From: Gammaproteobacteria bacterium
GTDB lineage: Bacteria > Pseudomonadota > Gammaproteobacteria > DATFLL01
Length of the DNA stretch: 64,000 nucleotides
Direction of reading: 5' to 3'
Assembly (NCBI GenBank): GCA_035267785.1
Contig: DATFLL010000050.1
Coordinates: 1,289-65,288, forward strand
A model generated the notes under the pieces. It was not told the origin of the DNA and did not search any database. It worked only from the letters and a program-made list of their open reading frames with translations. Shown one piece after another: positions 28,436-52,800 of the stretch (its first letter is position 1; every line of letters starts with the position of its first letter). A program made the position numbers and the translations under genes.

Positions 28436-28492
28436 GTGGTGGGGACGCAGTGGCGCGCCGGCCGTTATCGGGGAACCGAAGAAGGTGATTGC

Positions 28493-31481: not shown

Positions 31482-31549
31482 CACCGGCCCGTGCCGTGCC
31501 CGTGATTAATCACTATACCAATATATTCTGAATTATTGGGTGCCACGTC

Positions 31550-34930: not shown

Positions 34931-34938
34931 ACGTTCTC

Positions 34939-36289: not shown

Positions 36290-36574
36290 CGCAGTCGGGG
36301 CGTCCGAAGGGCAATACCCTAACTGTTTCGTCCCGCTCCCCACCACCACATATCTGTCGATTTTTGCCGCGCATAGTTACGGCATACCCGCACCGGGACT
36401 TACTGTCTTTCCCTACCGCTTTATTCGTCCGTCTTATCTACAGTTGCCATGAACGAGGGCCGATCGCTGACGATCGGTCGGTTGCGCCGAAGGCCGTTGC
36501 CCGAGGACCAATTCTTTTGGTGCTGGGCCGGAGCGAAAGCCCAAGGCGGCGAAAGTCAACGGGAGAGACGGATT

Positions 36575-39500
36575 ATGTTTGGCAACACAAGAACTATTCG
36601 TGCAACCAGGCACTGGATAGCGGCCCTACTGCTTGGCGCGGTCGGGTTCGCGGCCGGGCCGGTATACGCCGCTCAGTTCACGCTGAACGTGGTCGATGAC
36701 AACGGAGCGCCGGTAAGTGGCTTTCGCTGGATGGTCGAGGAGGACGTCACATATCCCGTGACGCCCGGGACGCCCGACCCGACCAGCCTGTCGTTCAATT
36801 TTCATAAGAGCCATACACCGGTTGCGCTCGACACGGCCGGCAATGCCCTCGAAGGCCGCACCGATGGCAGCTCAGTGACCGTTGGCTCGATTGACCCGGG
36901 CAAACGCTACTACGTGTCCGTGCTCCCTTACGGTGGGCACTCGCGAGGCAGTGCGCCTCTGCACTTCGACGCGGCGGCAACGGCTGCCACCGTCACGGTG
37001 GTGGCGAACCAGAATCCGCTGCCGACCGCGCAGATCTCGATTTTCGTCTTTGAAGACAACCAGGTGGTCAATGGCGCGCCAGACCTGCCCGAAGAGCATG
37101 GCCTGGGAGGCGCGGGTTCGGGCTGGAAGGTCCTGTTGGCCGAAGCGGCGGGTCAGTACGGTGCGGCCGGCGGCCAGGTTACCCAGGATGCCTTTGGCAA
37201 TCCGCTGGGCACCGAATATGCACCTGGCGATCCGAACACGATTGTGAAGCTGGGCGACGGTACCCTTACCCCGGACGCCAACGGTGTGTTGGTGATCAAG
37301 AACCTGCCCCCTGCGAAGTACGGCATCCAGGTCGTGCCGCCCGCGGGTCAAGGCTGGATCCAGACCTCGACGATCGAGGGGACGCATACCATCGACGCCT
37401 GGGTGAAGCCCAACGAGCCGAGCTATTTCGTCGAATTCGGCCCTCCGGGCCACCACGTGTTCATCGGTTTCGTGAAGGCGACTAACGAGTTCGCGGGCAA
37501 CGCCGGCGGCAGCACGATTTCCGGCAAGATCGTCAACAACCATGCATCGCGTCCGCCGGACTATACGTTCTACAACGGGAACGCCTTCCCGGACTGCTGG
37601 ATCGGCGTGAACAACGGACCGGCCGGGTCCGGACGCATGGTCTACGCGCAGGCGTGTAACTCTGACAGCACCTTCAGCATCGCCAATGTGCCTGCCGGCG
37701 CCTACGACCTGGTGGTCTGGGACGCCAATCTGGACATCGTGATCGCGACATTGGGCGTCACCGTCAACGCCGACGGGACCTGCTCTGCGCCCGGCGGCGC
37801 CTGCGACTTTGGTGAAATTCCCGTGTTCAACTGGAATGCGCGCCTGGAAACCAGCGTGTTCTTCGACCGCAATGGTAACGGCTTTCGCGACTGCCCGAGT
37901 GGGCGCGAGGCCTGTGACGATTTCTCACAGGATGATGTCGGTCTGGGTGCCGATCAAAGCGCGGTCAATTTACGTTTCCGTGACGGTCGCATCTATGAGT
38001 CCTTCCCGGTCGACTCGACGGGCGCGGCACCGTTCGACGAAGTCTTTCCGTTCTTCCACTGGTTGGTTGCCGAGGTCGATTTTGCCCGCATGAAGGCGAC
38101 GGGCGCCACGTTCACCGTGGACGCGGGCGGTCCGGTGGCCCCCGGCGAGGATCTTAATCCCCAGCCACAGACCTGTACGGCCGATGACGTGGCGGCCAAC
38201 ACAGACGGGTGTACGAACGTGGGGGATCCACGCATCAACCCGAACACGGGCGATAACCTGTCGCGCACCGAAACCGGTCCGGTTCTGACCACAGGATTCC
38301 AGGCCTTCCTCGGCCAGACGCTCAAGCTGGAGTTCGGCAAGGGGCTTTATGGCCCGGGTGAGAACGGCGGATTGTCCGGTATCGTGTTCTATGCCACGAC
38401 CCGCGCTGAAAACGATCCCCGTTATGCCGCGGGAGAGCCGTGGGAACCGGGCGTTCCTCGCGTTCAGATCAACCTGTACCAGGAGGACCCGGTTCTGGGC
38501 TACGGACATATTGCCGACATGGATGGCGACGGTGCGGAAACACCCGCCGACGTCGACAACTATCCGTTCGGCAACTTCCCCGGTCCTGAGGACGTCGATC
38601 ACAACGCCAATGGCACGTTCGACGTGGGTGACGCCATCCGCGTGACGACAACCGACAGTTGGGACGACAGCGTGCCGACCGGCTGCCAGGGAGACGTGTA
38701 TTACGTCAACGGTGATCCGAACCAACCCACCGACTGTTTCGACGGGCTGCGCAACTTCAACCAGATACGGCCCGGCGTGTTCGACGGTGGCTATGCGTTC
38801 GGCCCGAACGTGACCGGAGACGGTTCCGCGGAAATCCCCGCTGGAACCTACATCGTCGAGATGGCGGTTCCGCCGGGCTATGAACTGCTGAAGGAAGAGG
38901 ACAAGAACGTCGACTTCGGCGAGAGCTATGTGCCGAGCCCTCTGCTGCTGCCGCCCGAGTGTGTCGGCGCGCCGCACGTCGTCCCGCAGTATCTGAGCAT
39001 GCAGACGGACGAGACGGGCGTGCCGCTGCCTGGTGTCGCGGCCGCAGACCTGATTGATGCACCGTTCGCCGGCACGTCCCGGCCCCTGTGTAACCGCAAG
39101 CGTGTGACTTTGGCCAACGGCCAGAATGCGGCTGCGGATTTCTACCTGTTCACACAGGTGCCCAAGTCGGCCCATGTGGTAGGCGGTATCCTGAACGATC
39201 TGGCCAACGAGTTCGACCCGACCAAGCCGAACTTCGGCGAGAAGTACGCTCCGCCGTGGCTGCCGGTTTCGTTCCGCGATTGGCGCGGCCAGGAGGTTAA
39301 CCGCGTCTATGCCGACGAGGCGGGCAAGTTCAACGCCCTGCTGCCGTCGAACTACACAGTGAACATACCGAGCCCCTCGGGTGTCTCGCCGAACATGCTG
39401 ACTGCCTGCATGAACGACGCGGGTCCGATTCCGAACCCGAACTACGACCCGAGCGTTCCAGGATCGCAGCCGACCATAATCGACCCGTACTACAACCCGC

Positions 39501-41857
39501 AGTACAGCCAGTTCTGCTACACGTTGCAGTACATGCCGGGTGCGACGACCTATCTGGATACCCCGGTGCTTCCGATTGCGGCCTTCGCTGGACCGGGCAA
39601 TCCGGTGGACTGCCAGCAGCCGACCAACACGCCCATTGTGGCCTGGGTCAGCGCGCAGGGCAGCACACTGAATCCGGAAGGTGGTCCGTGGGCGGCCGTT
39701 GGCGACACCATCGTGATCCAGTCGGCGGGCCAACTCCAGGTGTCGAATCCCGCGTTCACCGGTCCGGGCGGCACCGAGCCTCGGTTGATTCAGCGCGACT
39801 ACCGCTTCGGAACGACCTCGGGAACAGTGACGATTGCCGGTACTCCGCTGAATATCGTGTCCTGGGATTCCAACACCATCACCGCCACGATTCCGCGCGG
39901 CACGGATACCGGTGAGCTGGTCGTTACCAGTGCCTCGGGTCTCTCGTCCCCGGTGGGAGTTACGGTCACGGTGGGGCGCGTACCTGGCGGGAGCGTGTTC
40001 CATGTCTCGCCGAGCTCGGTCCCCGGTGCCACCCCTATTCAGGATGCCATCGATGCCGCCAGCGCCGGCGACCTGATTCTGATCGCCCCGGGTACCTACG
40101 ACGAGCTGCCGATCATGTACAAGCCGCTGCAGCTTCAGGGCTGGGGTGCGTGGTCCGTCACCTTGAACTCGCGCAAGGTACCCGGCGAGAAGCTGCAGGC
40201 CTGGCGTAACAAGATCAATACATTGTACGCCAACGGCCAGTTCGACCTGCTGCCGGGCCAGCCCGTGCCGGCCCTTGACGCGGCCAACAACGAACCGGCC
40301 CTGTTCGCGGCCGAGGAGGGTGCGGGTATCACGGTCGTCGCCAAACAGACCGGACCGAACCGCTTCCGTCCGAAGCCCGTCAACGCCCGGATCGACGGTC
40401 TCACCATCACAGGCGCCGACTTCGGCGGCGGCATCTTCGTCAACGGCAACGCTGACCACCTGGAGATCAGCAACAACCGCATTATGGGCAACTCCGGTAC
40501 GTTCGGCGGTGGCATCCGGGTCGGTCACGCGACCCTGACCCAAGAGACCCCCGACGGCCTCTTATACACCGATTCCAGCAACGACAGTCTGCGCATTCAT
40601 CATAACCACATTGCGCAGAACGGTACGCAGGGGGGGACCGGAGGCGGTGTCGCGCTGTATACCGGAGCTAACGGCTACGCGGTGACCGATAACTTTATCT
40701 GCGGCAACTTTTCCCAGGCGCCCGGTGCGGGTGTGGGTCACCTGGGCTTGAGCCCCAATGGTCGCATCGCTCACAACCAGATCATCTTCAATCAGTCCTT
40801 CTCGCAGGACGGGGTGATTTCAGGTGGCGGTGTCTATGTGGCCGGCGCCGCGGCGCTGGCCGCGACGGGTCTGAGTCCCGGCGCAGGTGACGTGACCATC
40901 GACGACAACCTGATTCTCGGCAACCAATCGGGTGCCGGCGACGGCGGCGGCATCGCGACCGAGTCGGTCAACGGCGAGGACGTGGCCGCCAGCCCCGACA
41001 ACGAGTCCAACTGGTACCGCGTGAAGATCGTCAACAACCAGGTGGTCGACAACGTCGCGGGCTACGCGGGCGGCGGCATCTCGCTGCGGGATACCGCCCG
41101 GGCCGATATCGTCAACAACACGATCGCCAACAACGACAGTACGGCGACGGTGGGGGCGGCGTTCTCGCCGGGTGTGCCCAATATGTCCAACGCCCAGCCG
41201 GCCGGCGTCGTATCCCGCGCGCACACGACCGCCCTGGCCGGGGCAATCGGAGCGGTCGGTCCGCAGTTCGCGGCTGGCTTCTCCAACCCGCGCCTCGTCA
41301 ATAACGTCATCTGGCACAACCGCTCGTTCTACTTCGCGGTCAATGACGCCTACGATCCGGATCTGCCGGCGGGCCCGACCAACCAGGCCTATCGACTGCT
41401 GCCTGATATCGGCGCGGGTGATGCTCCGGTCTACGCCGACCTGGCGGTCCTCGGTACCACCGGCTCGCTGGATCCCCGGTTCTCGGTGCTCACCGATACC
41501 ACTGGCTACGACGCGAGCAATATGAGCGCCGACCCGCAGTTCGTCGCGAGCTACGTCAACGGCGACCCGAACTCCACGGTCCAGATGCCGGAGGCCACCA
41601 CGAGTCTGGCGCCGGCGGTGGCGTTCGATGAGGGCGGTAACTTCATCGATATCCGTTTCGGTCCGTTGACACTGAACGACCCGGCGACGGGTGCAGCCTA
41701 CGGGGACTACCACCTGCAGAGCGGTTCGCCGGCTATCGACTCCGGAGACACGACCATCGTGTACAACGGTGCGCTCTCCGAGCTGCTGCTGGATATGGAC
41801 GGTCAGACGCGGCCGCTGGGTGCGGGCGCTGACATCGGTGCCGACGAGGCTCAGTAA
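36575..41857 (+). CDS. giant secreted protein: SdrD-B/Cna-like beta-sandwich repeats + acidic Ca-binding-like loops + IPT/TIG + right-handed beta-helix region
   Basis: GGGAGAG precedes the ATG at 36575. Signal peptide ALLLGAVGFAAGPVYA. Repeated motifs NLPPAKYGIQVVPPAGQGW, ANVPAGAYDLVVWD, IPAGTYIVEMAVPPGYELL. TIG-like TIAGTPLNIVSWDSNTITATIPRGTDTGELVV. Beta-helix repeats (GGGIFVNGNADHLEISNNRIMGNSG...). C-terminal DMDGQTRPLGAGADIGADE. Confidence 0.85.
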   Translation: MFGNTRTIRATRHWIAALLLGAVGFAAGPVYAAQFTLNVVDDNGAPVSGFRWMVEEDVTYPVTPGTPDPTSLSFNFHKSHTPVALDTAGNALEGRTDGSSVTVGSIDPGKRYYVSVLPYGGHSRGSAPLHFDAAATAATVTVVANQNPLPTAQISIFVFEDNQVVNGAPDLPEEHGLGGAGSGWKVLLAEAAGQYGAAGGQVTQDAFGNPLGTEYAPGDPNTIVKLGDGTLTPDANGVLVIKNLPPAKYGIQVVPPAGQGWIQTSTIEGTHTIDAWVKPNEPSYFVEFGPPGHHVFIGFVKATNEFAGNAGGSTISGKIVNNHASRPPDYTFYNGNAFPDCWIGVNNGPAGSGRMVYAQACNSDSTFSIANVPAGAYDLVVWDANLDIVIATLGVTVNADGTCSAPGGACDFGEIPVFNWNARLETSVFFDRNGNGFRDCPSGREACDDFSQDDVGLGADQSAVNLRFRDGRIYESFPVDSTGAAPFDEVFPFFHWLVAEVDFARMKATGATFTVDAGGPVAPGEDLNPQPQTCTADDVAANTDGCTNVGDPRINPNTGDNLSRTETGPVLTTGFQAFLGQTLKLEFGKGLYGPGENGGLSGIVFYATTRAENDPRYAAGEPWEPGVPRVQINLYQEDPVLGYGHIADMDGDGAETPADVDNYPFGNFPGPEDVDHNANGTFDVGDAIRVTTTDSWDDSVPTGCQGDVYYVNGDPNQPTDCFDGLRNFNQIRPGVFDGGYAFGPNVTGDGSAEIPAGTYIVEMAVPPGYELLKEEDKNVDFGESYVPSPLLLPPECVGAPHVVPQYLSMQTDETGVPLPGVAAADLIDAPFAGTSRPLCNRKRVTLANGQNAAADFYLFTQVPKSAHVVGGILNDLANEFDPTKPNFGEKYAPPWLPVSFRDWRGQEVNRVYADEAGKFNALLPSNYTVNIPSPSGVSPNMLTACMNDAGPIPNPNYDPSVPGSQPTIIDPYYNPQYSQFCYTLQYMPGATTYLDTPVLPIAAFAGPGNPVDCQQPTNTPIVAWVSAQGSTLNPEGGPWAAVGDTIVIQSAGQLQVSNPAFTGPGGTEPRLIQRDYRFGTTSGTVTIAGTPLNIVSWDSNTITATIPRGTDTGELVVTSASGLSSPVGVTVTVGRVPGGSVFHVSPSSVPGATPIQDAIDAASAGDLILIAPGTYDELPIMYKPLQLQGWGAWSVTLNSRKVPGEKLQAWRNKINTLYANGQFDLLPGQPVPALDAANNEPALFAAEEGAGITVVAKQTGPNRFRPKPVNARIDGLTITGADFGGGIFVNGNADHLEISNNRIMGNSGTFGGGIRVGHATLTQETPDGLLYTDSSNDSLRIHHNHIAQNGTQGGTGGGVALYTGANGYAVTDNFICGNFSQAPGAGVGHLGLSPNGRIAHNQIIFNQSFSQDGVISGGGVYVAGAAALAATGLSPGAGDVTIDDNLILGNQSGAGDGGGIATESVNGEDVAASPDNESNWYRVKIVNNQVVDNVAGYAGGGISLRDTARADIVNNTIANNDSTATVGAAFSPGVPNMSNAQPAGVVSRAHTTALAGAIGAVGPQFAAGFSNPRLVNNVIWHNRSFYFAVNDAYDPDLPAGPTNQAYRLLPDIGAGDAPVYADLAVLGTTGSLDPRFSVLTDTTGYDASNMSADPQFVASYVNGDPNSTVQMPEATTSLAPAVAFDEGGNFIDIRFGPLTLNDPATGAAYGDYHLQSGSPAIDSGDTTIVYNGALSELLLDMDGQTRPLGAGADIGADEAQ

Positions 41858-41926: not shown

Positions 41927-43159
41927 ATGAACAGCTTCTACGCACACGCAGCAAAGGCGGCTTTGTTTCTCGTCCTGCTAGGCAGCACGGGATTGGCCAG
42001 CGCCGCGGCCTTCATACAGTGTCCCGGTGACACCAACGCCGATGCAGTTCCGGACGTACCGGTGCTCGATGAGCAGGGCAACCCAAGGAACATCAAGTGC
42101 ATGCACTTGAGTAGCGGTGACGGGTTCGTCAACATGGCCGACGGCAAGCTGCAGTACATTTTCAGCTTCTCGGATTTGACTGGTATACCGGAGGCCGACT
42201 CAATAGATGCCGGGATCCTGGCCGCTAACTTCCCGGCCCCGACTATTGCGCTGGATGAAGGCCAGGAATTCTACCTGTCGCTAACGAACGTCGGCATGGC
42301 GCACCGCCCGGATCTGTTCGACCCGCATACGGTCCACTTTCACGGCTTTCCCAATGCATCCTCGATTTTCGACGGCGTTCCCGATGCAACGATCTCCATC
42401 AATATGGGTGCGACGCTGACGTACTACTACAAGATTGTCGAGCCCGGCACCTATATGTACCACTGCCATGTCGAGGCGACCGAGCATATGCAGATGGGCA
42501 TGCTCGGTAACCTCTACGTTCGCCCCGCGCAGAACGGCACTCCCATCGCAGACCCTGACGGCAGCGGTCGGGTCCACGACAAGTTCGTGTACAACGATGG
42601 CGACGGGGTGACGGGTTACGACGTGGAAGTTCCGATTCAGCTCGGCTCCTTCGACTCCGAATTCCACGATGCGAGCATGAATGTCCAGCCCTTGCCGTTT
42701 CAAAACATGAAGGCGCGTTACGCCATGTTGAACGGGCGCGGCTACCCGGACACGGTGCGCCCCTCGAACTACTTTGAATTGAACCCCGGCGCGGCGCAGC
42801 AGGAGAACGGCGGCGTAAACTCTCAGCGCATCAATGCACTGGTCGAGGCCGCGCAAGGTCAGAAGATTCTCCTTCGTATCTCCAATCTCAACGTCACGAA
42901 TTACTTCACCGTGACAGCGCTCGGTATTCCAATGAAGGTGGTTGGCGGCGGCGCGCGTCAGCTGCGCGGGCCGACGGGCAAGGACATCTCGTATGAGACG
43001 ACCTCCGTGACGTTGGGCGGCGGCGAAGCGGTCGAAGTGATTCTCGATACGAAAGACGTCCCGGCAGGTACGTATTTTCTTTATACGACGAACATGAACT
43101 ACCTCAGCAACGGCGATCAGGATTTCGGCGGCATGATGACCGAGATACGCATCAACTAA
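41927..43159 (+). CDS. multicopper-oxidase-fold protein 1: copper ligands only in the N-terminal cupredoxin domain
   Basis: Signal peptide. HTVHFHG (H134, H137, H139) and YHCHVEATEHMQMGM (H179, C180, H181, H187, M192). The second domain has YFLYTTN where ligands would sit. Confidence 0.85.
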   Translation: MNSFYAHAAKAALFLVLLGSTGLASAAAFIQCPGDTNADAVPDVPVLDEQGNPRNIKCMHLSSGDGFVNMADGKLQYIFSFSDLTGIPEADSIDAGILAANFPAPTIALDEGQEFYLSLTNVGMAHRPDLFDPHTVHFHGFPNASSIFDGVPDATISINMGATLTYYYKIVEPGTYMYHCHVEATEHMQMGMLGNLYVRPAQNGTPIADPDGSGRVHDKFVYNDGDGVTGYDVEVPIQLGSFDSEFHDASMNVQPLPFQNMKARYAMLNGRGYPDTVRPSNYFELNPGAAQQENGGVNSQRINALVEAAQGQKILLRISNLNVTNYFTVTALGIPMKVVGGGARQLRGPTGKDISYETTSVTLGGGEAVEVILDTKDVPAGTYFLYTTNMNYLSNGDQDFGGMMTEIRIN

Positions 43160-43190
43160 CGGCGAACCGCGAGCGTTCAGGAGACGGAAC

Positions 43191-44525
43191 ATGAATGTGA
43201 AATTCACACAGCCAGCCCGGCTGTTGGCCATGGCGACGATGTTGTTGTCACTGGCCTGTGCGAACCTGGCGCGGGCGGAGATCGACGGGATCACCGACCC
43301 CACGTCCACGTTCAACCTATCGGCTGAAGCGAATTACATCGCAACGCCGGACGGCGGCAGCACGCTCATCTGGGGCTTTGCCGACCAGAACGGGGGCACG
43401 CCCATGCAGTATCCGGGCCCCACGCTTATCGTCAAACAGGGCGATACGGTCACTGTCAATCTCACCAATAACCTGTCGGTGCCGGTCTCCATCGTGTTTC
43501 CGGGACAGGCCGGGGTCACGGCCAGCGGCGGCGCCGCCGGGTTGTTGACCAACGAGGCGGCACCGGCCGGCGGCACGGTTCAGTATTCCTTCACGGCAAC
43601 GAACGCCGGGACCTACATGTACCACAGCGGCACCAATCCGCAACTGCAGATGGACATGGGCCTGGTGGGAGCCCTGATCGTGCGCCCGACCGGCTATGAC
43701 GCGTCGACCAACAAGATTGCCTACGGACATCCGGACACGAAATACGATCACGAATATCTGTTCTTCCTGACGGAGATGGATGTGGCGATGCACGACGCCA
43801 TCGATCAGGGGCGCCCGCAGGACGTGGACAACACGAGCTATCACCCGACGCTGTGGTTCATCAACGGGCGCAATGGCCCCGATACGATGTCCCCGGCCGG
43901 CCAGCCCTGGCTGCCGCATCAGCCCTACAGCGCCCTGGCGAGAATTCACCCGGGAGAGAAGCTGCTGCTGCGTGTCATCGGAGGGGGGCGCGACACCCAT
44001 CCGTTCCACACCCACGGCAACGACTTCGAGCAAATCGGGCGTGACGGGCGGATGCTCCAGAGCGCGCCGGGCGCCGGGCCGGATTTGCAGCGGGGCGACT
44101 ACACCATGCAGACGGTGCCCGGCGCGACTTACGAGGCGATTTTCCAGTGGACGGGCCGCGAGCTCGGCTGGGATATCTATGGCACCCCGGCACAGGGCGG
44201 TGCAGCCCACACCTGCAATGGGCTCGATACGGCCTCGGCGGGCTTCGACCCTGTAACGCATGAGTACTGCCCGGATCACGGCAAACCCCTGCCGGTGGTT
44301 CTTCCCGAGACCCAGGACCTGACCTTTGGCGGTTTCTACAGTGGCAGTCCGTTCCTCGGCGGGCTCGCCGATCTGCCGCCGGGTGAGGGCGGGCTCAATC
44401 TCTACGGTGGCATGTTCTTCATGTGGCACAGCCATAACGCCGTGGAACAGGTCAACAACGACATCTTCCCGGGCGGTATGACGACGATGCTGATCGTCGA
44501 GCCGCCAGGGGTTCCGATTCCCTGA
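43191..44525 (+). CDS. multicopper-oxidase-fold protein 2: trinuclear-site His pairs only in the C-terminal domain, no T1 Cys
   Basis: Signal peptide. The N-terminal domain is degenerate (IVFPGQ, YMYHSG). The C-terminal domain has HPFHTHG (H270, H273, H275) and WHSH (H413, S414, H415) in place of HCH. Confidence 0.85.
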   Translation: MNVKFTQPARLLAMATMLLSLACANLARAEIDGITDPTSTFNLSAEANYIATPDGGSTLIWGFADQNGGTPMQYPGPTLIVKQGDTVTVNLTNNLSVPVSIVFPGQAGVTASGGAAGLLTNEAAPAGGTVQYSFTATNAGTYMYHSGTNPQLQMDMGLVGALIVRPTGYDASTNKIAYGHPDTKYDHEYLFFLTEMDVAMHDAIDQGRPQDVDNTSYHPTLWFINGRNGPDTMSPAGQPWLPHQPYSALARIHPGEKLLLRVIGGGRDTHPFHTHGNDFEQIGRDGRMLQSAPGAGPDLQRGDYTMQTVPGATYEAIFQWTGRELGWDIYGTPAQGGAAHTCNGLDTASAGFDPVTHEYCPDHGKPLPVVLPETQDLTFGGFYSGSPFLGGLADLPPGEGGLNLYGGMFFMWHSHNAVEQVNNDIFPGGMTTMLIVEPPGVPIP

Positions 44526-44562: not shown

Positions 44563-46713
44563 ATGCTCAAGTCAAAAACATCAATCGCGCTAGTCGGTCT
44601 TCTGACGTTGGCGGCGGGCCCGGCGGCCGCGGTCACCTATGACCTCTGCGCGGGTCCATTTAACCAGACTATGCCCGACGGTACGGTGGTCCCCATGTGG
44701 GGTTTCGCACCGGGCGGCGCGACCGGCGGGGTCTGTGACGCGCCGCCGACGGCGCCGGGGCCCATGCTTACGGTGCCCGACGGGGACAACGTCTTGACTA
44801 TCAACCTTGTCAACACGCTGCCGAATACCAACGGGGCGCCAACGCCCGTGTCGGTCGTTGTCCCGGGGCAGATCACCGCCATGGAACCGCAGCGTAACCC
44901 CGACGGGCGAGTGCGTTCCTTCACGCATGAGACGCTGCCGGGTACACCGGGGGTGTACACCTGGTCGAACTTCACGCCGGGCACCTACATCTACCACAGC
45001 GGCAGCCATCCGGCGGTACAGGTCCAGATGGGACTGTACGGCGGTGTCAAGAGGGACAGCGGACCGGGCGTCGCGTATCCGGGCGTTGGTTATGACGCCG
45101 AGGTCGTGATGTTCTACAGCGAGCTGGACCCGGACCTGCACGCGGCCGTGGCGAGCGACGATTACGGTCCGGGTAAGGGGACGACCAGCACGCTCTACTA
45201 TCATCCGCAGTATTTTCTGATCAACGGGGCGCCCTATGTCGACGGTGTTACGCCGGATCTGGCGGGAGCGCCTTCAGGCCAGCGTACGCTGATCCGCTTC
45301 CTGAACGCGGGCTTGAAGACCCACGTGCCGGAGATCCTGGGACGCTACATGAGCATCAAGGCCGAGGATGGCAAGGCGTATCCGTACCCAAGAGAGCAGT
45401 TCTCCTTGCAGCTGCCGGCCATGAAGACCAAGGACGCGGTCGTCGTCAGCGACAGCCGCTACCCAATCTACGACCGCGCGATGGCCTTGACCAATGGCAC
45501 GGGTGCCGGTCCGGGCGGCATGCTCAGGTTCGTGGCCCTCGGTTCGCCGTCGGCCGCCGACACCGTTACCATCCTGCGCACGCGTCACGACAGCGGCACG
45601 TCGTCGTTCAGTGTGTGGGCCGACAGCTCGGCCGCCGGTGCGGGCACGGTTCTGTCTCTGCAGGGCTATGGTGACATGACTTACGCGGCCGATCCCGACT
45701 TCGGTTACAGCATCGCAGCGGCCGGTGTCGTCACCAACCCGGGCAGCGCCACGGTCAACAGCAGCCTGGGCGGCAGTGACAGCAAGGCTGTGCCGTACAC
45801 GGCGCCGCCCGTGGCGAGTGCCGATGCTGCGAGTGTCGACGAGGGTGCGAGCGTGAACGTCCCGGCGGCCGGCGTGCTGGCCAACGACAGCAAGGGCGGC
45901 TACTTCGGTAGCGGCGAAGCCCTCGCGGCCGTGCTGGTCACACCGCCCAGCAATGGTACGGTGACGCTCAACGCCGACGGCAGCTTCAGCTACACGCACA
46001 ACGGGAGCGAGACGACCGTCGACAGCTTCACCTATCGGGTCGATGCCATCGACACCGGAACCTCCACGACGTTGGCGAGCAGCAGTCCCGCGACCGTGAC
46101 GGTTACCGTGAACCCGGTAAACGACACGCCGGTGGCGGTGGCGGACGCCGTGACTACGGCGGACGGTACGGCAGTGGTCGTGCCGGTCCTGTCCAACGAC
46201 ACGGATGCCGACGGCGACCCGCTCAGTGTCACGGCCGTGACGCAGGGCACCAGCGGCACGGTCAGCCTGGTCAGCGGTACGGTGACCTATACGCCGACCG
46301 CGCCGGGTCCGTACACCGACAGCTTCACCTATACGGTGGACGATGGTAACGGCGGAACGGCGGTGGGTACGGTCACGGTGACCGTGGAGGCGGCGGTTAA
46401 TCAGCCCCCGGTGGCTTCTGACGATGCGGGTACTGTGACGCGCAACAAGCGCAACACTTCGCCGCCGAACTCGGTGACCATCGACGTGCTGGCCAATGAC
46501 AGCGATGCCGACGGTAGCCTGGTCCCGTCCACTGTCCAGGTGACGGTGCCCCCGGCACACGCCGGTACGGTGTCGGTAAACCCGTCGACCGGTGCCATCA
46601 CCTATACACCGCCGGTCAACTTCCGCGGCACCGACGTGTTCAAGTACACGGTGCAGGACGACGCCGGTGCGACGTCCAACGCGGCGAGCGTGAACGTCAA
46701 CGTCGTGCGGTAA
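44563..46713 (+). CDS. copper-ligand-less MCO-fold protein fused to three cadherin-like/Ig-like repeats
   Basis: Signal peptide. Two cupredoxin-like domains lack His ligands (VVVPGQ, YIYHSGSHPAVQVQMGLYG). Three repeats of about 100 aa carry LANDS/LSNDTDADGDPL and FTYTV/FKYTV motifs. Confidence 0.8.
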   Translation: MLKSKTSIALVGLLTLAAGPAAAVTYDLCAGPFNQTMPDGTVVPMWGFAPGGATGGVCDAPPTAPGPMLTVPDGDNVLTINLVNTLPNTNGAPTPVSVVVPGQITAMEPQRNPDGRVRSFTHETLPGTPGVYTWSNFTPGTYIYHSGSHPAVQVQMGLYGGVKRDSGPGVAYPGVGYDAEVVMFYSELDPDLHAAVASDDYGPGKGTTSTLYYHPQYFLINGAPYVDGVTPDLAGAPSGQRTLIRFLNAGLKTHVPEILGRYMSIKAEDGKAYPYPREQFSLQLPAMKTKDAVVVSDSRYPIYDRAMALTNGTGAGPGGMLRFVALGSPSAADTVTILRTRHDSGTSSFSVWADSSAAGAGTVLSLQGYGDMTYAADPDFGYSIAAAGVVTNPGSATVNSSLGGSDSKAVPYTAPPVASADAASVDEGASVNVPAAGVLANDSKGGYFGSGEALAAVLVTPPSNGTVTLNADGSFSYTHNGSETTVDSFTYRVDAIDTGTSTTLASSSPATVTVTVNPVNDTPVAVADAVTTADGTAVVVPVLSNDTDADGDPLSVTAVTQGTSGTVSLVSGTVTYTPTAPGPYTDSFTYTVDDGNGGTAVGTVTVTVEAAVNQPPVASDDAGTVTRNKRNTSPPNSVTIDVLANDSDADGSLVPSTVQVTVPPAHAGTVSVNPSTGAITYTPPVNFRGTDVFKYTVQDDAGATSNAASVNVNVVR

Positions 46714-46731: not shown

Positions 46732-47232
46732 ATGCAATACGGTAACGCAGTGTCGGCTCTGGCAGGCGAGGGGGCGGCGGTTCGCCGCCGCTCCCGAGCT
46801 CTGCCGCTGTTGGGTGGGGCATTCGTGATTGGCGCACTGGCGCTGGCCTGGATCTTCTCCTGGTTCAACGCGGGGGCTATGTCGCCGTCGGCGTCGGAGC
46901 TGCGCAATACCTGGGGTATTGAAATCCTCGGTATCCGCACCTCAGCGGCCGGCTATATGCTGGACTACCGCTTTCGCGTCAAGGACGTCGACAAGGCCGC
47001 TCCGCTGCTCGATCGCACGATTCCCGCCTACATCGTGGTGGAGAAGAGCGGGGCCCGGCTCGGAGTGCCCAACCCACCGACCACCGGTCGGCTGCGCGCT
47101 TCGGCCAAGTTTCCCAAGAAGGATCGGAACTATTTCATCTTCTTCGGCAACCCCGGCCACTACGTCAAGGCAGGGGATCGAGTCAGTGTCGTGATTGGCG
47201 ACTTCAAAGTCCAGCACCTCGTTGTGCAATAG
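46732..47232 (+). CDS. membrane-anchored hypothetical protein
   Basis: One N-terminal TM (LLGGAFVIGALALAWIF) and a beta-rich domain of about 110 aa. The next gene starts immediately after its stop. Confidence 0.55.
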   Translation: MQYGNAVSALAGEGAAVRRRSRALPLLGGAFVIGALALAWIFSWFNAGAMSPSASELRNTWGIEILGIRTSAAGYMLDYRFRVKDVDKAAPLLDRTIPAYIVVEKSGARLGVPNPPTTGRLRASAKFPKKDRNYFIFFGNPGHYVKAGDRVSVVIGDFKVQHLVVQ

Positions 47233-49326
47233 ATGGGTTCGACGCATATGACACACCGCAGCATCAAATGGGCAGTCGCCCCGGTCCTGGGCCTGGCGGT
47301 ACTGTGCACGGCCGGGCTTGCGAGCGCAGGCAGTATCGGGTCGAGCCTGAAGGAGCGGCTCGAGCAGCTCGGTCCTGACGATGAGGTGGCGGTCATCATC
47401 CGTCTCAAGGACAAGGCGGATGTGCGCTCGTTCAAGGACCTGGATCGGCACGCACGGCGGGCGAAGATCATCAAGGCCCTACGCGACAAGGCGGCCCAGT
47501 CTTTGGAGCCGCTGCGGGTGGTACTCAATCAGGGCGAGGTGCGCAGGATGCGCGACCTGTGGCTGATCAACGGCGTTGCGGCGACGGTGCCGGCCCACCG
47601 TGTCGGTGCGCTGGCGAACAAGCCCTGGGTGGGCAACATCTCCCTGGACATGACCTTGGCCGCGCCGACGGTGACCTATGGCGTGACGTCGACGCCCGGC
47701 TGGAATCTCGCCGCGATGGCGGCGCCCGATCTGTGGCAACAGGGTTTCACGGGCCAGGGTGTGGTCGTGGCTACGTTGGACAGCGGCGTCGATACCTTCC
47801 ATCCCGATGTCGGCAGCCGCTGGCGCGGCGGTTCCAACAGCTGGTTCGATCCTTACGGCCAGCATGCGACACCGGTGGACATGAACGGTCACGGTACACA
47901 CGTGGCGGGCCTCATCCTCGGGGGCGATGCCAGCGGGCAGGTATTGGGGGTCGCGCCCGACGCGCAGTGGATTGCAGCAAAGATTTACGATGACGCCGGA
48001 AGCGCGACCTTCAGCGCGATTCATCTCGCGCTGCAGTGGGCGCTCGATCCGGACGGCAATCCGGACGTCGACGATGCGCCGGACGTGGTTAACAACTCCT
48101 GGGGCTTGCCGGATGCGGCGGGGACGTGTAACCCGGAATTCGCGGAGGACATAGCGGCACTGCGGGCCTCGGACATCGCTGTCGTGTTCGCGGCGGGCAA
48201 CTCCGGCCCCAATGCCTCCAGCGATCTCAGCCCGGGCAACAGCTCGCCGAACCTGGTGACCGGTGCCGTCGACGAGACCCTGACGATCGCGCCCTCCAGC
48301 AGCCGCGGACCCTCGTCCTGCGATGGCGGGCTCTATCCGCAGGTCGTGGCGCCGGGAGTGAACGTCCTCACGGCAGACCTGACGTTCAGCGGTCTGTTCC
48401 CGCAGTCGTACGTCGAGGTGTCCGGCACGTCGTTCGCTGCGGCACAGGCAAGCGGCACCCTGGCGCTGCTGATAAGCGCTGTTCCGACGGCGAGCGTGAA
48501 CGAGTTGGAAACAGCCGTGTTGGATACGGCCGTGGACAAGGGCGCGTTGGGTCCCGATTACGATTACGGCATGGGGCTCGTCAACGCCGCCGATGCGTAC
48601 AACACCCTGGCCGGTGGCACCACGGCGCAGCCGGGCAGCCTGCAGTTCGCCGTGGCCGGATACAGCGTCAGCGAAGACGGAGGCAGCGTGACGCTGACGG
48701 TGAGCCGACAGGGCGGCAGCAGCGGCGCGGTGTCGGTCGACTTTGCCACCTCGGACGGATCGGCCGCCTCCGGTCAGGACTACGTTGCGGCCGCCGGTAC
48801 GCTCAACTTTGCCGACGGCATTACCAGCCGGACGATTACGATTACCATTGTCGACGACACGGTTTACGAGGGAAACGAGACATTGTCGGTGGCGCTCGCC
48901 AATCCGACCGGCGGTGCAACCCTCGGCTCGCCCATTTCGACGCTGTTGACTATCGTCGACAACGATCCGCAGGTTGTCGATGTCGATCAGGACGGGTATG
49001 CCGCCGGTTCGGATTGCAATGACAACGATGCGTCCGTTTATCCCGGTGCGCCTGAGATCAAGCACGACGGTGTCGATCAGGATTGCAACGGCTACGATTT
49101 GACCATCGACATCAGCGCACTGCGCTACAACGCCAAGAAGGGCAAGCTGACCGTGGAGGCCACCAGCGCGCTCAATGGCTCGGCCAATCTCTCGGTTGAC
49201 GGATTCGGGGCGATGAGCTGGAACCGGCGCAAGGGTGTTTGGCAGTTGGATGTCTCGGGCGTCGGGACGCAGCCGACCCGGATCACGGTCAGCGGTGTCG
49301 AGGGATCCGAAACGGCACCATTCTGA
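47233..49326 (+). CDS. secreted subtilisin-like (S8) serine protease with I9 propeptide, Calx-beta and MopE-like Cys/Asp motif
   Basis: Catalytic triad in VVVATLDSGVD, HGTHVAGL, SGTSFAAAQASG. Calx-beta VSVDFATSDGSAASGQDYVAAAGTLNFADG...ITIVDDTVYEGNE. DQDGYAAGSDCNDNDASVYPGAPEIKHDGVDQDCNG. Confidence 0.85.
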   Translation: MGSTHMTHRSIKWAVAPVLGLAVLCTAGLASAGSIGSSLKERLEQLGPDDEVAVIIRLKDKADVRSFKDLDRHARRAKIIKALRDKAAQSLEPLRVVLNQGEVRRMRDLWLINGVAATVPAHRVGALANKPWVGNISLDMTLAAPTVTYGVTSTPGWNLAAMAAPDLWQQGFTGQGVVVATLDSGVDTFHPDVGSRWRGGSNSWFDPYGQHATPVDMNGHGTHVAGLILGGDASGQVLGVAPDAQWIAAKIYDDAGSATFSAIHLALQWALDPDGNPDVDDAPDVVNNSWGLPDAAGTCNPEFAEDIAALRASDIAVVFAAGNSGPNASSDLSPGNSSPNLVTGAVDETLTIAPSSSRGPSSCDGGLYPQVVAPGVNVLTADLTFSGLFPQSYVEVSGTSFAAAQASGTLALLISAVPTASVNELETAVLDTAVDKGALGPDYDYGMGLVNAADAYNTLAGGTTAQPGSLQFAVAGYSVSEDGGSVTLTVSRQGGSSGAVSVDFATSDGSAASGQDYVAAAGTLNFADGITSRTITITIVDDTVYEGNETLSVALANPTGGATLGSPISTLLTIVDNDPQVVDVDQDGYAAGSDCNDNDASVYPGAPEIKHDGVDQDCNGYDLTIDISALRYNAKKGKLTVEATSALNGSANLSVDGFGAMSWNRRKGVWQLDVSGVGTQPTRITVSGVEGSETAPF

Positions 49327-49343: not shown

Positions 49344-49380
49344 CCCGCGCCGTGAGCACCGCGGCGCGGGGTTTTTCTTT
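49344..49380 (+). terminator. rho-independent terminator ending the 6-gene operon
   Basis: CCCGCGCCG-(9 nt loop)-CGGCGCGGG followed by GTTTTTCTTT. Starts 18 nt after the stop. Confidence 0.8.
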
Positions 49381-49804: not shown

Positions 49805-52800
49805 TCAGCAAAAATCCCGCGACTGCGTGGGCAGTGCCCCGAGCAAGTCACTATGGTCCTCCAGGCGCCGGGCGATCACGTGAATGACCTCGCCCTCGCG
49901 CTGTACCTGCCCATCGATGATCAATAATCTTCCGTTCAACACCTCCCGGCGATAACGTTCACTCAGTTTCGGCCAGACGATCACATTGGCGCTGCCGGTC
50001 TCGTCCTCCACGGTCAGGAAGATCACTCCCTTGGCACTGGAGGGATGCTGGCGCGTGACCACCAGGCCCGCAATGCGGATCGACGTGTCGTGAGCGCGTT
50101 CGCGCAAGGTAGCACTCGAGGCGCAGCGCCGGCGCACCAACTCGGCGCGCAGCAGCGCCAGCGGGTGGCGGCCCAGGGTTAAACCCAGACTGCTGTAGTC
50201 GGCGACGAGGTCCTCGCCCTCGGTCGGCGCGCGCAGTAGGGCGGTATCGTCGCTGTCCACGGTGTCGCCGAACAGGGGCAGCGTGGTCTCGGTGCCGAGC
50301 GCCTGCCAATGCGCATGATGACGGTGGCCGGCCAGTGAGGCCAATGCGCCGGCGCCCGCCAGGGCGTTGATGTCCGCGCGGCCGAGCCGCGCCCGCCGGG
50401 TCAGGTCGGTCACGCTGTGGAAGGCCTGCACCGCCCGCGCCTCGACCAGGCGTTCGACGCCGGCCTTACTGACGCCCTTCACCTGGCGCAGCCCCAGTCG
50501 CAGAGCGAGGTCTTTGTCGTCAGTGGGCTCCAGGGTGTAATCCCAACCGCTGTGCGCGACGTCCACGGGCCGTACCTCCACACCGTGGCCGCGCGCGTCC
50601 TGCACGAGCTGCGAGGGCGCATAAAAACCCATCGGCTGGCTGTTGAGCAGGGCGCAGGCGAAGGCAGCCGGCTCGTAGCGCTTGAGCCAGGCCGAGACAT
50701 AGACCAGCAGCGCGAAGCTGGCGGCGTGCGATTCGGGGAAGCCGTATTCGCCGAAGCCCTGGATCTGGTTGTAGATCTGCTGGGCGAAGTCCTCGCTGTA
50801 ACCGCGCTCGCGCATGCCGTCGACGAGCTTCTGGCGAAAGCGCTCCAGCTTGTCGCGCCGGCGCCAGGAGCCGATCGCCCGGCGCAGCGCGTCGGCCTCG
50901 CCGGGCGAGAAGCCGGCGGCGACCACCGCCAGCTTGATTACCTGTTCCTGGAAGATTGGCACGCCCAGGGTGCGTTCCAGCACCCGGCGCACGGCCTCGC
51001 TGGGATAGCTCACCGGCTCCAGGCCGTCGCGCCGGCGCAGATAGGGATGCACCATCTCGCCCTGAATGGGACCGGGGCGCACGATGGCCACCTCGATGAC
51101 CAGGTCGTAGAAGGTGCGCGGCCTGAGTCGCGGCAGCATGGCCATCTGCGCGCGCGATTCGATCTGGAACACACCCACGGTATCGGCGTGCGAGAGCATG
51201 GCATAGACCGCCGCGTCTTCCGGCGGGATGTTGGCCAGGCTCAGACGCCGTCCGCGGTGGCGTGCGATCAGATCGAAGGCGCGGCGAATGGCACTGAGCA
51301 TGCCCAGTCCCAGTACGTCCACCTTGAGCAGGCCCATGGTGTCCAGGTCGTCCTTGTCCCATTCGATCACCGAGCGTTCGGCCATGGCCGCGTTTTCGAT
51401 CGGCACCAGGCGCGAGACCGCCCTGCGCGCGATGACGAAGCCCCCGACGTGCTGCGACAAATGGCGCGGAAAGCCGAGGATCGTGAGCACCAGTTCGATC
51501 AGGCGCTGGACGAGGGGACTGGCGGGATCGAGCCCGGCCTCGCGCACGCGCTCGGCGAGCTGCTCGCGCCCGTCCCACCAGGCGTAGCTGTCGGCCAGGC
51601 GCTCGACCTGCTCGGCGTCGAATCCCAGCGCCTTGCCCACGTCGCGCAGCGCGCTCTTGGGCCGATAGGTAATGACGGTGGCGGTCAGTGCGGCGCGCTC
51701 GCGCCCGTAGCGCGAGTAAATGTACTGGATGACCTCCTCGCGGCGCTCGTGCTCGAAGTCGACGTCGATGTCCGGCGGCTCGTTGCGCTCCTTGGAAACG
51801 AAGCGCTCGAACAACATCTCCATGCGGCTCGGATCGACGGCCGTGATCCCCAGGCAGTAGCACACCACGGAGTTCGCCGCCGAACCGCGGCCTTGACACA
51901 AAATGCCGCGCGAGCGCGCGAAGCGTACGATGTCGTACACGGTCAGAAAATAGGGTTCGTAGCCGAGCTCGGCGATGACGGCGAGCTCGTGTTCGACCAG
52001 TGCGCGCACATTCTCCGGGGCGCCTGCCGGCCAGCGTTCGGCCAGGCCCGCCTCGGTCAGGCGCCGCAGATAGGCCGTGGCCGTCTCGCCCGGCGGGACA
52101 TCATCAGTTGGGTATTCGTAGCGCAGCTCATCGAGCGAGAAGGTGCAGCGTTCGGCAATGCGCACGGTCTCTGTGAGCAGGGCGGCGGGATATACGTGCG
52201 CCAGCCGTTTGCGCGTGCGCAGGTGCCGCTCACCGTTGGGACACAGTGCCTTGCCCAGCGAGTGTACCGGCGTGCCGAGCCGGATCGCCGTGAGCACGTC
52301 CTGCAGCGTGCGGCGCCCGCGCGTGTGCATGTGCACACCGCCCGCGGCAGCCAGGGGTAAACCGGTGCGCCCGGACAATGTCTCCAGGCGCTCCAGCCAG
52401 GCGGCATCGTCCGGCCCGCGCAGCAGCTCCGCCGCGATCCATGACCGTTCGGCAAAACGCGCGCCGAGCCAGGCCGCTTGTTCGGCCATCGTCTCGTCGT
52501 CATCGGCGGGCGAGGGCAGCAGCAGGGCCAGACAACCCGGGAGCCCGCTATCCAGATCGTTCCGCCGCAGCTCGTATTGTCCCTTGGGCGCCCGGCGCCG
52601 CGCCCGGGTGATGAGCTCGGAGAGGTTGGCGTAGCCGTCGCGGTCCATCGCCAGCGGCACCACGGCCGGCCCGTCGGCCAGGCGCAGCTCGCTGCCGACA
52701 ATCAGGTGCAGGCCGTGCTCCTTCGCCGCCTGATGCGCCCGCACCACCCCGGCCAGCGAGCACTCGTCGGTGACGGCCAGGGCCCGGTAGCCCAGCTTCG

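What the first reader, a model, noticed from the sequence alone, without database searches (positions are those of the whole stretch)
41927..44525. Copper ligands of one multicopper oxidase appear split across two adjacent polypeptides
Seen: MCO1 has HTVHFHG and YHCHVEATEHMQMGM in its first cupredoxin domain (nt 42326-42502). That gives two HxH pairs plus a Cys/His/Met T1 set. Its second domain has no ligands. MCO2 has a ligand-less first domain (IVFPGQ, YMYHSG). Its last domain has HPFHTHG and WHSH (nt 43998-44435), giving two HxH pairs, with Ser in place of the T1 Cys. Established: a trinuclear copper cluster needs eight His as four HxH pairs, contributed by two cupredoxin domains at an interface. 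Inference: neither protein can build a trinuclear site alone. Together they supply exactly 4 + 4 His and one T1 site, which suggests an obligate heteromeric MCO. I am not aware of a described two-gene split MCO.
Basis: partly seen in the sequence, partly recalled or inferred. Interest (0 to 1): 0.72.

Follow-up and report, generated by a model that had tools for sequence, protein, structure and literature searches.

The report
Copper oxidase split across three genes
Three neighbouring genes each encode a two-domain copper-oxidase-like protein, but the eight histidines needed for the oxygen-reducing copper cluster are divided 4 + 4 between two of them and the third has none, a pattern kept in hundreds of bacteria, so the enzyme can probably only work as a mixed complex, an arrangement I did not find described for this well-studied enzyme class.

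Summary
MCO1 (41927-43159) carries a complete blue-copper (T1) site and two HxH pairs in domain 1 and no ligands in domain 2. MCO2 (43191-44525) has no ligands in domain 1 and two HxH pairs in domain 2. MCO3 (44563-46713) has a two-cupredoxin core with no ligands.

Both ligand-bearing proteins are relatives of type-C two-domain multicopper oxidases (3G5W, 2ZWN) by sequence and by predicted fold. Those enzymes are homotrimers that build each trinuclear cluster between domain 1 of one chain and domain 2 of its neighbour.

The complementary pattern is invariant in about 80 Gram-negative loci. It recurs in about 80 actinobacterial loci at only about 40% identity to MCO1 and in two further cluster variants. 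The three genes are always adjacent (75/75, 70/70; 73/74, 68/68). Natural fusions MCO2-MCO3, MCO3-BIG and BIG-MCO1 tie the products together.

Best reading: a secreted MCO1:MCO2:MCO3 ring with a single trinuclear site at the MCO1 domain 1 / MCO2 domain 2 interface. This would be an unfused analogue of six-domain oxidases such as ceruloplasmin.

The substrate is unknown. Eight literature searches found no description of such a split oxidase.

The parts
36449..41857 (+). BIG: 1802-aa secreted protein with Ig-like/SdrD_B/TIG repeats, a right-handed beta-helix (NosD-like) and a C-terminal choice-of-anchor Q domain; first gene of the operon, probable surface scaffold or anchor
   Evidence: Pfam/NCBIfam. 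Upstream of MCO1 in 64/65 loci. Naturally fused to MCO1 (P0247) and to an MCO3-like module (L164).
41927..43159 (+). MCO1: two-cupredoxin subunit with Sec-type signal peptide; domain 1 carries the T1 site plus half of the trinuclear ligands, domain 2 is ligand-free
   Evidence: Pfam Cu-oxidase_3/_2/Cu-oxidase. Best PDB sequence hit 3G5W, E=1.8e-16. AF2 pLDDT 83.7; Foldseek top hits 3G5W/2ZWN, TM 0.71-0.72.
42326..42502 (+). MCO1 ligand block: H134 (T1), H137, H139, H179, H181 (trinuclear), C180, H187, M192 (T1)
   Evidence: Six of the eight residues are invariant in 81/81 sequences; H134 and H181 are each present in 80/81. Aligned to the 3G5W domain-1 ligands.
43191..44525 (+). MCO2: two-cupredoxin subunit with signal peptide; domain 1 is ligand-free, domain 2 carries the other half of the trinuclear ligands and has a conserved ~70-aa insertion
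   Evidence: Pfam. PDB sequence hits 2ZWN/3G5W. AF2 pLDDT 85.0; Foldseek 2ZWN/3GDC/3G5W, TM 0.71-0.73. Adjacent to MCO1 in 75/75 loci.
44007..44435 (+). MCO2 ligand block: H273, H275 (HPFHTHG) and H413, H415 (WHSH)
   Evidence: Invariant in 76-77 sequences; the one exception is a gap. Exactly these two HxH pairs are kept in the actinobacterial clade and in L163/L164.
44563..46713 (+). MCO3: ligand-free two-cupredoxin core (about residues 24-330, nt 44632-45552) plus three cadherin/Big_9 repeats; proposed third ring subunit and tether
   Evidence: 33% identical to MCO2, E=2e-24. Weak PDB hit 4KNS. No HxH in any orthologue. Adjacent in 70/70 loci. The C-terminal extension is variable, total length 318-2488 aa. 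Natural MCO2-MCO3 fusion.
46732..47232 (+). P166: small protein with an N-terminal hydrophobic segment, no known domain and no conserved His/Cys/Met; conserved accessory gene
   Evidence: No Pfam/NCBIfam hit. Present in 58/60 loci and in L081, L163. Conservation profile.
47233..49326 (+). S8 subtilisin-like protease with Calx-beta domain and MopE-type metal-binding motif; probable maturation protease; last gene of the operon
   Evidence: Pfam. Present in 47/53 Gram-negative loci and in L162/L163. Not seen next to the actinobacterial cluster in L086.
49344..49370 (+). Intrinsic terminator-like site closing the operon (11-bp stem, 10 G-C pairs, T-run)
   Evidence: It is the only strong terminator-like site on the + strand between 35600 and 49900. 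The total number of terminator-like sites (9) was no more than the shuffles gave (mean 8.0).

Best explanation
The operon encodes a secreted, hetero-oligomeric multicopper oxidase derived from a type-C two-domain MCO by gene triplication and complementary loss of copper sites. MCO1, MCO2 and MCO3 each keep the two-cupredoxin fold and assemble into the pseudo-threefold ring typical of two-domain MCOs. Only one of the three inter-subunit interfaces is catalytic.

Proposed electron path:
- A substrate electron enters at the T1 copper in MCO1 domain 1 (H134, C180, H187, M192).
- It passes through the H179-C180-H181 bridge to a trinuclear copper cluster.
- That cluster is ligated by MCO1 H137/H139/H179/H181 and MCO2 H273/H275/H413/H415.
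- There O2 is reduced to water.

MCO3, with no ligands in either domain, closes the ring against the two ligand-free faces (MCO2 domain 1 and MCO1 domain 2). Its variable C-terminal cadherin-like repeats would tether the enzyme. BIG is a surface scaffold physically linked to the ring. The S8 protease, P166 and, in some clusters, CopCD serve maturation and copper supply.

Shown: the ligand distribution, the fold, the conservation, the synteny and the fusions. Inferred: the assembly, the ring order, copper occupancy and activity. The substrate is unknown; an extracellular metal or mineral reductant is one guess.
For: 1. Ligand map: 4 + 4 His and one T1 site, with nothing in the other four domains.
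2. Fold: the closest solved relatives by sequence and predicted fold are type-C two-domain MCOs. These enzymes form trimers in which residues from two protomers ligate the trinuclear site (PMC13151041).
3. Conservation: all ligands are invariant or nearly so in about 80 loci from many phyla. The identical complementary pattern holds in 70 of 73 actinobacterial MCO1-like/MCO2-like pairs, and MCO3-like proteins there have no HxH. It also holds in L163 and L164. All but 2 of the 28 distant MCO1-like representatives checked carry only the domain-1 ligand set, and none has a domain-2 HxH pair at the ligand positions.
4. Synteny: MCO1-MCO2 adjacent 75/75, MCO3 70/70; 73/74 and 68/68 in Actinomycetota.
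5. Operon: 18-37 nt gaps between the MCO and P166 genes, none before the S8 gene, Shine-Dalgarno-like sites before MCO1 and MCO2, and one strong terminator-like site after the last gene.
6. Natural fusions: MCO2-MCO3 (P0453/P0459), MCO3-BIG (L164) and BIG-MCO1 (P0247).
7. Pseudo-ligand motifs facing the presumed copper-free interfaces are more conserved than the protein average: 0.91 vs 0.72, 0.81 vs 0.67, 0.84 vs 0.57.
8. In the monomer models, confidence collapses at the MCO1 HxxHxH loop and at a conserved MCO2 loop next to WHSH. This is as expected for elements that order only on partner or copper binding.
9. A CopC-CopD gene lies inside some clusters.
10. Parity argument (inference): MCO3 is the only third member that leaves no orphan half-site.
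Against: - No direct test of interaction.
- No natural MCO1-MCO2 fusion was found. The two candidates (P0457, P0460) look like frameshift artefacts.
- In actinobacterial and L163-type clusters, MCO1-like proteins carry a twin-arginine signal while the L081 MCO2-like protein looks Sec-type. The subunits would therefore cross the membrane separately and MCO1 must be stable alone.
- Low pLDDT at the loops is only suggestive.
- Ring membership of MCO3 and the ring order rest on analogy and on one fusion lineage.
- No activity, copper content or substrate is known for any member.
Confidence: 0.7

Rival explanations
1. MCO1 and MCO2 form the composite trinuclear site, but MCO3 is not part of the ring. 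The complex would be a heterodimer, or a ring with a second copy of MCO1 or MCO2. MCO3 would then be a copper-free, MCO-shaped adhesin, comparable to FtsP/SufI-type pseudo-oxidases.
For: MCO3 is the least conserved of the three (mean column identity 0.57 against 0.72 and 0.67). Its domain-2 pseudo-motifs are no more conserved than its average. It carries variable adhesin-like repeats.
Against: MCO3 is adjacent in 70/70 and 68/68 loci. About a quarter of the complete orthologues (17 of 68 are under 380 aa) are little more than the bare two-cupredoxin core without any adhesin part. It is naturally fused to MCO2 in one lineage. Any ring with a second MCO1 or MCO2 would leave an orphan half-site (inference).
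Confidence: 0.15
2. There is no shared copper cluster. MCO1 acts alone as a blue-copper electron-transfer protein whose extra histidines are vestigial or bind a different metal. MCO2 is a separate copper-binding or structural protein of the same surface apparatus.
For: Each protein is predicted to fold confidently on its own (pTM 0.85 and 0.87). The subunits have separate export signals, including Tat for MCO1-like proteins in some clades. No interaction evidence exists.
Against: Vestigial ligands would not stay invariant across clades that share only about 40% identity, while every other ligand position was lost. The histidines retained are exactly the two complementary half-sites of one interface. 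The dispensable T1-remnant His270 of MCO2 did drift, to Tyr in Actinomycetota.
Confidence: 0.1
3. The split is an artefact: a frameshifted or decaying single gene, or mis-called ORFs.
For: Some database entries in this family are frameshift chimeras (P0457, P0460).
Against: In the window there are three complete ORFs, each with its own signal peptide, and MCO1 and MCO2 have Shine-Dalgarno-like sites upstream. Each ORF is a full two-domain protein, not a fragment. The same organisation is seen in more than 150 independent genomes.
Confidence: 0.01

Closest known systems
Type-C two-domain multicopper oxidases (Nitrosomonas europaea blue copper oxidase 3G5W; metagenomic mgLAC 2ZWN; Arthrobacter 3GDC)
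   Same: Same two-cupredoxin fold (Foldseek TM about 0.71-0.75). Same motif types: HxxHxH + HCH(x5)H...M in domain 1 and HxxHxHG + HxH in domain 2. The trinuclear site is built between domain 1 of one chain and domain 2 of another (PMC13151041).
   Different: In the known enzymes every chain carries both half-sites, so a homotrimer has three T1 and three trinuclear sites. Here the half-sites sit on different gene products and a third paralogue has none, so at most one site per ring is possible and a homotrimer of any one subunit would have none.
Six-domain multicopper oxidases (ceruloplasmin, hephaestin, MnxG)
   Same: Six cupredoxin domains in a pseudo-trimeric arrangement in which no more than one of three possible trinuclear sites survives (PMC3600357). 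The other interfaces are degenerate.
   Different: Those are single polypeptides, with T1 sites in even-numbered domains and the cluster between domains 1/6 or 2/3. Here the six domains are on three chains, the single T1 site is in an N-terminal domain (type-C ancestry), and the family is not detectably closer to them by sequence.
Mnx complex of Bacillus (MnxG with MnxE/MnxF)
   Same: A multi-subunit bacterial multicopper oxidase encoded by an operon.
   Different: From my own knowledge, all T1 and trinuclear ligands lie in MnxG, and MnxE/F are small non-MCO proteins. No catalytic site is split between subunits.
Copper-free MCO-like proteins (FtsP/SufI, insect MCORP)
   Same: Like MCO3, and like the degenerate domains of MCO1 and MCO2, they keep the cupredoxin scaffold but have lost copper ligands (PMC2661564 and PMC4203857, seen only as search-result abstracts).
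   Different: They are stand-alone three-domain proteins with non-oxidase roles. They are not obligate neighbours of ligand-bearing paralogues.
Three tandem MCO genes Slit_1816-1818 of Sideroxydans lithotrophicus ES-1
   Same: Described as two cupredoxin proteins with MCO motifs plus a larger motif-less one with adhesin and polysaccharide-lyase-like domains, predicted extracellular and more abundant on magnetite (PMC5566968; bioRxiv 10.1101/2024.09.20.614158). This matches the L164 variant found here: MCO1-like, MCO2-like, MCO3-BIG fusion.
   Different: Identity with this family was not tested, because no Slit sequences were available here. That cluster also has SCO1/SenC and a cytochrome. Neither paper notes that the ligands are split or proposes a heteromer.

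Membership tests
Multicopper oxidase superfamily | Cupredoxin-fold domains | tested here: met
   Pfam Cu-oxidase_3/_2/Cu-oxidase for MCO1 and MCO2. Foldseek matches to solved MCOs with probability 1.00. MCO3 is 33% identical to MCO2, and an MCO3-like protein hits Cu-oxidase_3.
Multicopper oxidase superfamily | T1 site: Cys + 2 His (+ axial Met) | tested here: met
   MCO1 H134, C180, H187, M192. C180, H187 and M192 are invariant and H134 is present in 80/81 sequences. MCO2 and MCO3 have none.
Multicopper oxidase superfamily | Trinuclear cluster: eight His in four HxH pairs within one enzyme | tested here: inconclusive
   Not met by any single chain. Met exactly by MCO1 + MCO2 together. Whether they form one site was not testable.
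Multicopper oxidase superfamily | Four-electron reduction of O2 coupled to substrate oxidation | not testable with these tools
   No biochemical data for any member was found.
Type-C two-domain MCO (homotrimeric) | Two cupredoxin domains with T1 in the N-terminal domain | tested here: met
   Met for MCO1. Definition from PMC13151041.
Type-C two-domain MCO (homotrimeric) | Each protomer carries both half-sites, so identical chains build the trinuclear clusters | tested here: not met
   MCO1 domain 2 has YTT at the HDH position and lacks the first motif. MCO2 domain 1 has VSIVFPGQ / YHSG. MCO3 lacks everything.
Type-C two-domain MCO (homotrimeric) | Trimeric ring quaternary structure | not testable with these tools
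Inferred from homology only.
Six-domain MCO (ceruloplasmin / MnxG type) | Six cupredoxin domains on one polypeptide | tested here: not met
   Three separate ORFs with their own signal peptides and ribosome-binding-like sites before MCO1 and MCO2. The chimeric-query search found no three-module chain.
Six-domain MCO (ceruloplasmin / MnxG type) | At most one trinuclear site among three pseudo-equivalent interfaces | tested here: met
   Met at the level of ligand counts summed over the three chains. PMC3600357 gives the rule in six-domain proteins.

The most novel reading that the evidence does not exclude
MCO1, MCO2 and MCO3 form a 1:1:1 heterotrimeric ring with one T1 site and one trinuclear site. 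This would be an extant, unfused counterpart of the hypothetical route from two-domain MCO trimers to six-domain oxidases. In this family, triplication and complementary loss of copper sites happened at the gene level without fusion. The family is widespread (Pseudomonadota, Desulfobacterota, Myxococcota, Acidobacteriota, Planctomycetota, Nitrospirota, Actinomycetota) and is physically coupled to a giant surface beta-helix protein. It would represent an unrecognised class of extracellular oxidase, possibly acting on solid or extracellular reductants.
Probability: 0.55. Interest if true: 0.8.

Novelty: new variant of a known kind. Interest (0 to 1): 0.72.

Why it matters
Multicopper oxidases are among the best-studied metalloenzymes. 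As far as I could establish, every described member builds its trinuclear cluster either within one chain or between identical chains.

A catalytic copper cluster obligatorily shared between two different gene products, with a third pseudo-subunit, would be a new quaternary solution. It would also give a living example for models of how six-domain oxidases lost two of their three clusters.

It has a practical consequence. Thousands of database entries named 'multicopper oxidase' or 'manganese oxidase' would be inactive if expressed alone, so heterologous screens and genome-based activity predictions would misread them.

The family occurs in cultured Micromonospora, Kribbella, Nocardioides and Amphritea, so the idea is directly testable.

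If the Sideroxydans magnetite-induced cluster is the same system, it may bear on extracellular mineral oxidation.

Tried and rejected
No multimer geometry could therefore be obtained, and model coordinates are not exposed.
- Natural MCO1-MCO2 fusions: a concatenated three-module query found none. P0457 and P0460 initially looked like such fusions but contain Arg/Pro-rich out-of-frame stretches and truncated modules, so I treat them as frameshift artefacts. L049's long MCO2 ORF was not a clean fusion.
- Inter-protein covariation (DCA): considered and not run. About 150 paired sequences for about 1100 columns is far too shallow.
- P166 as a copper chaperone: rejected, because it has no conserved His, Cys or Met.
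- BIG against solved structures by sequence: no hit.
- Literature: eight searches for heteromeric or split MCOs found nothing relevant. The 'heterotrimer' of Nmar_1354 is a proteolytic form of one gene product.
- Reading Lawton et al. 2009 (3G5W) failed because the paper is not held.
- A dedicated type II secretion system as a constant partner: seen in the window and in L164, but in only about 5 of 80 visible flanks. It is not a core component within the visible range.
Full report
**Observation.** The region holds three consecutive + strand ORFs: MCO1 (41927-43159, 410 aa), MCO2 (43191-44525, 444 aa) and MCO3 (44563-46713, 716 aa). MCO1 has HTVHFHG from residue 134 and YHCHVEATEHMQMGM up to M192. 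MCO2 has HPFHTHG from residue 270 and WHSH ending at H415. Pfam places Cu-oxidase domains in MCO1 and MCO2.

**Wider locus.** The three genes sit inside a six-gene operon.
- BIG (36449-41857) has 1802 aa, with Ig-like repeats, a NosD-like beta-helix and a choice-of-anchor Q end.
- MCO1, MCO2 and MCO3 follow. MCO3 is a cupredoxin core plus three cadherin/Big_9 repeats.
- P166 (46732-47232) has no known domain.
- The last gene is an S8 protease with Calx-beta and a MopE-type motif (47233-49326).

Gaps between the MCO and P166 genes are 18-37 nt, and there is none before the S8 gene. GGAG/AGGAG sites precede MCO1 and MCO2. The only strong terminator-like site on this strand follows the protease gene at 49344-49370.

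**What the proteins are.** By sequence, the best solved relatives of MCO1 and MCO2 are the type-C two-domain MCOs 3G5W, 2ZWN and 3GDC. AlphaFold2 monomer models (pLDDT 83.7 and 85.0; pTM 0.85 and 0.87) match the same structures best, with target-normalised TM 0.71-0.75.

Two-domain MCOs are trimers in which residues from two protomers ligate each trinuclear cluster. Type C has its T1 site in the N-terminal domain (PMC13151041). The printed alignments give these equivalences:
- MCO1 domain 1 equals the ligand-bearing domain 1 of 3G5W (PHTIHWHG; YHCHVNVNEH).
- MCO1 domain 2 has YTT where 3G5W has HDH.
- MCO2 domain 2 THPFHTHG equals IHAMHSHG of 2ZWN, and its HSH sits at the HDH position.
- MCO2 domain 1 has lost both motifs.

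A joint alignment of the three paralogue families shows that MCO3 has lost all four motifs. MCO3 is most similar to MCO2 (33% identity, E=2e-24). MCO1 and MCO2 share 26%. The six domains therefore hold exactly one T1 site and eight trinuclear histidines: four on MCO1 domain 1 and four on MCO2 domain 2.

**Is the pattern selected?** A scan of species-representative genomes returned 80 loci from Thiohalomonadaceae, Gallionella, Thiobacillus, Desulfobulbaceae, Myxococcota, Acidobacteriota, Phycisphaerales, Nitrospiraceae, Methylocaldum and Amphritea pacifica, among others.
- All carry BIG-MCO1-MCO2-MCO3-P166-(S8) in that order.
- Wherever enough sequence is visible, MCO2 follows MCO1 in 75/75 and MCO3 follows in 70/70. 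BIG is present in 64/65, P166 in 58/60 and S8 in 47/53.
- Of the MCO1 ligands, six are invariant in 81/81 sequences, and H134 and H181 are each present in 80/81. H270, H273 and H275 of MCO2 are invariant in 77/77, and H413, S414 and H415 in 76/77, the exception being a gap.

A full-library search found 2359 cluster representatives. All but 2 of the 28 distant MCO1-like proteins checked (35-49% identity) carry only the domain-1 ligand set, and none has a domain-2 HxH pair at the ligand positions.

One of these led to a second clade in Actinomycetota (Micromonospora, Kribbella, Actinoplanes, Nocardioides and others; 81 loci). The order there is BIG-like, MCO1-like, MCO2-like, MCO3-like, small protein.
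- MCO1-like proteins have the HxxHxHG and HCH motifs in all 73 scored pairs.
- MCO2-like proteins have the H[S/A/T]H motif in 70 of those 73. In the loci listed they have exactly two HxH (YPFHPHG, MAHSH).
- MCO3-like proteins have none in the loci listed.
- Adjacency is 73/74 and 68/68.
- The first His of the window's HPFHTHG is Tyr there. Only the four trinuclear histidines are universal.

Two further variants keep the same split. One is L163. The other is L164, where MCO1-like and MCO2-like genes are followed by a giant MCO3-BIG fusion.

**Evidence for physical association.** Natural fusions link the components.
- P0453 and P0459 are MCO2-like and MCO3-like modules joined by a linker of about 165 aa. 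They sit in operons that also contain MCO1-like, P166-like, CopC-CopD and S8 genes.
- The L164 giant protein begins with a ligand-free MCO3-like module and continues into a BIG-like region (E=1.6e-178 to BIG).
- P0247 is a BIG-MCO1 fusion with no signal peptide at the junction. Three of the 80 loci are open in frame from BIG into MCO1.
- No genuine MCO1-MCO2 fusion was found.

Pseudo-ligand motifs on the presumed copper-free faces are more conserved than their proteins' averages. In the monomer models, confidence collapses exactly at the MCO1 HxxHxH loop (mature residues 107-128). It also collapses in a conserved MCO2 loop just before WHSH (mature residues 351-375). Both are compatible with elements that order on assembly.

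**Mechanism proposed.** The subunits are exported with their own signal peptides, Sec-type here and Tat-type for MCO1-like proteins in other clades. They assemble outside the cytoplasm into a two-domain-MCO-type ring.
- The MCO1 domain 1 / MCO2 domain 2 interface holds the only trinuclear cluster. It is fed from the T1 copper in MCO1 through the His-Cys-His bridge.
- MCO3 closes the ring. It is the only third member that leaves no orphan half-site (inference).
- Its variable C-terminal repeats (total length 318-2488 aa) and BIG tether the enzyme at the cell surface.

This mirrors six-domain oxidases, which retain at most one of three possible clusters (PMC3600357), but without gene fusion.

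The substrate is unknown. The only functional hint is indirect. Sideroxydans ES-1 has three tandem extracellular MCO genes, two with motifs and one large motif-less gene with adhesin and lyase-like domains. These are more abundant on magnetite (PMC5566968; bioRxiv 10.1101/2024.09.20.614158). That description fits the L164 variant, but I could not compare sequences.

**Novelty.** Eight full-text searches found no heteromeric or split multicopper oxidase. A 2026 paper still describes two-domain MCOs simply as trimers of protomers (PMC13151041). The Nmar_1354 'heterotrimer' is a proteolytic variant of one chain. The library does not cover subscription journals, so prior description cannot be excluded.

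**Limits.** Interaction, copper stoichiometry and activity are untested. Ring order and MCO3 membership rest on homology, parity of sites, synteny and one fusion lineage.

Noticed in passing
window 19978-30718 (+); L164 1-8818: A complete type II secretion operon lies upstream of the oxidase cluster: GspE, F, G, H, further pseudopilins, K, L-like, M and secretin GspD. In the distant variant L164, a T2SS-like set (T2SSF, T2SSE, secretin, pseudopilins) directly precedes the MCO1-like gene. Only about 5 of 80 other loci show T2SS genes within the visible flanks.
   Followed up: partly
window 30726-35610: Two LuxR-type response regulators and two histidine kinases (one with GAF/PAS) sit between the T2SS and BIG. 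Homologues of the regulator and the GAF kinase occur in the flanks of 15 and 20 of 80 related loci, so they may control the operon.
   Followed up: partly
L162 3213-5036; L163 7425-9311: A fused CopC-CopD copper-handling gene lies inside the cluster, between the P166 homologue and the S8 protease, in the lineage that also has the MCO2-MCO3 fusion. An OmpR-type two-component pair follows.
   Followed up: partly
P0419, P0421 and about 20 similar proteins (about 795 aa; Planctomycetes, Kiritimatiellia): MCO1-like modules carrying only the domain-1 ligand set are fused at their N-terminus to a PAP2-superfamily domain. This is a different partner from BIG. Its meaning is unknown.
   Followed up: no
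window 44328-44402 (MCO2 residues 380-404): The loop GFYSGSPFLG..LPPGEGGLN, inside a ~70-aa insertion absent from solved two-domain MCOs, is conserved across orthologues but is the only very-low-confidence segment of the MCO2 model. It is a candidate partner-binding element.
   Followed up: partly
MCO1 H247 (FHDAS), MCO2 H201 (MHDAI), MCO3 LHAAV; window about 42665, 43791, 45139: A histidine at the equivalent position of the inter-domain segment is at least 90% conserved in all three paralogue families of the Gram-negative clade. It is not conserved in the actinobacterial MCO3-like protein of L081. Its role is unknown.
   Followed up: no
one search hit list (e.g. P0136, P0137, P0175): Several MCO2 homologues, which have no T1 site and only half a trinuclear site, carry the automated JGI name 'manganese oxidase'. 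The name is unlikely to be meaningful for the isolated protein.
   Followed up: no
window 49805-52894 (-) and 61377-63107 (-): A DnaE2-type error-prone polymerase gene abuts the operon. An ImuB-like (IMS family) gene lies about 8 kb further on rather than next to it. Between them are RsgA, nitroreductase, CSD-DUF1294 and PEBP genes.
   Followed up: no
window 54001-58000 and 62001-64000: G+C drops to 0.55 at 54-58 kb, against 0.60-0.68 nearby, and rises to 0.735 in the last 2 kb. Not examined.
   Followed up: no
P0242 (1994 aa); L013, L050, L075: In some genomes the BIG reading frame runs without a stop into MCO1. In P0242 it passes through a PEP-CTERM-like hydrophobic anchor and the MCO1 signal peptide. 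It is unclear whether this is read-through, a sequencing or gene-calling artefact, or a real polyprotein that the S8 protease could cut.
   Followed up: partly
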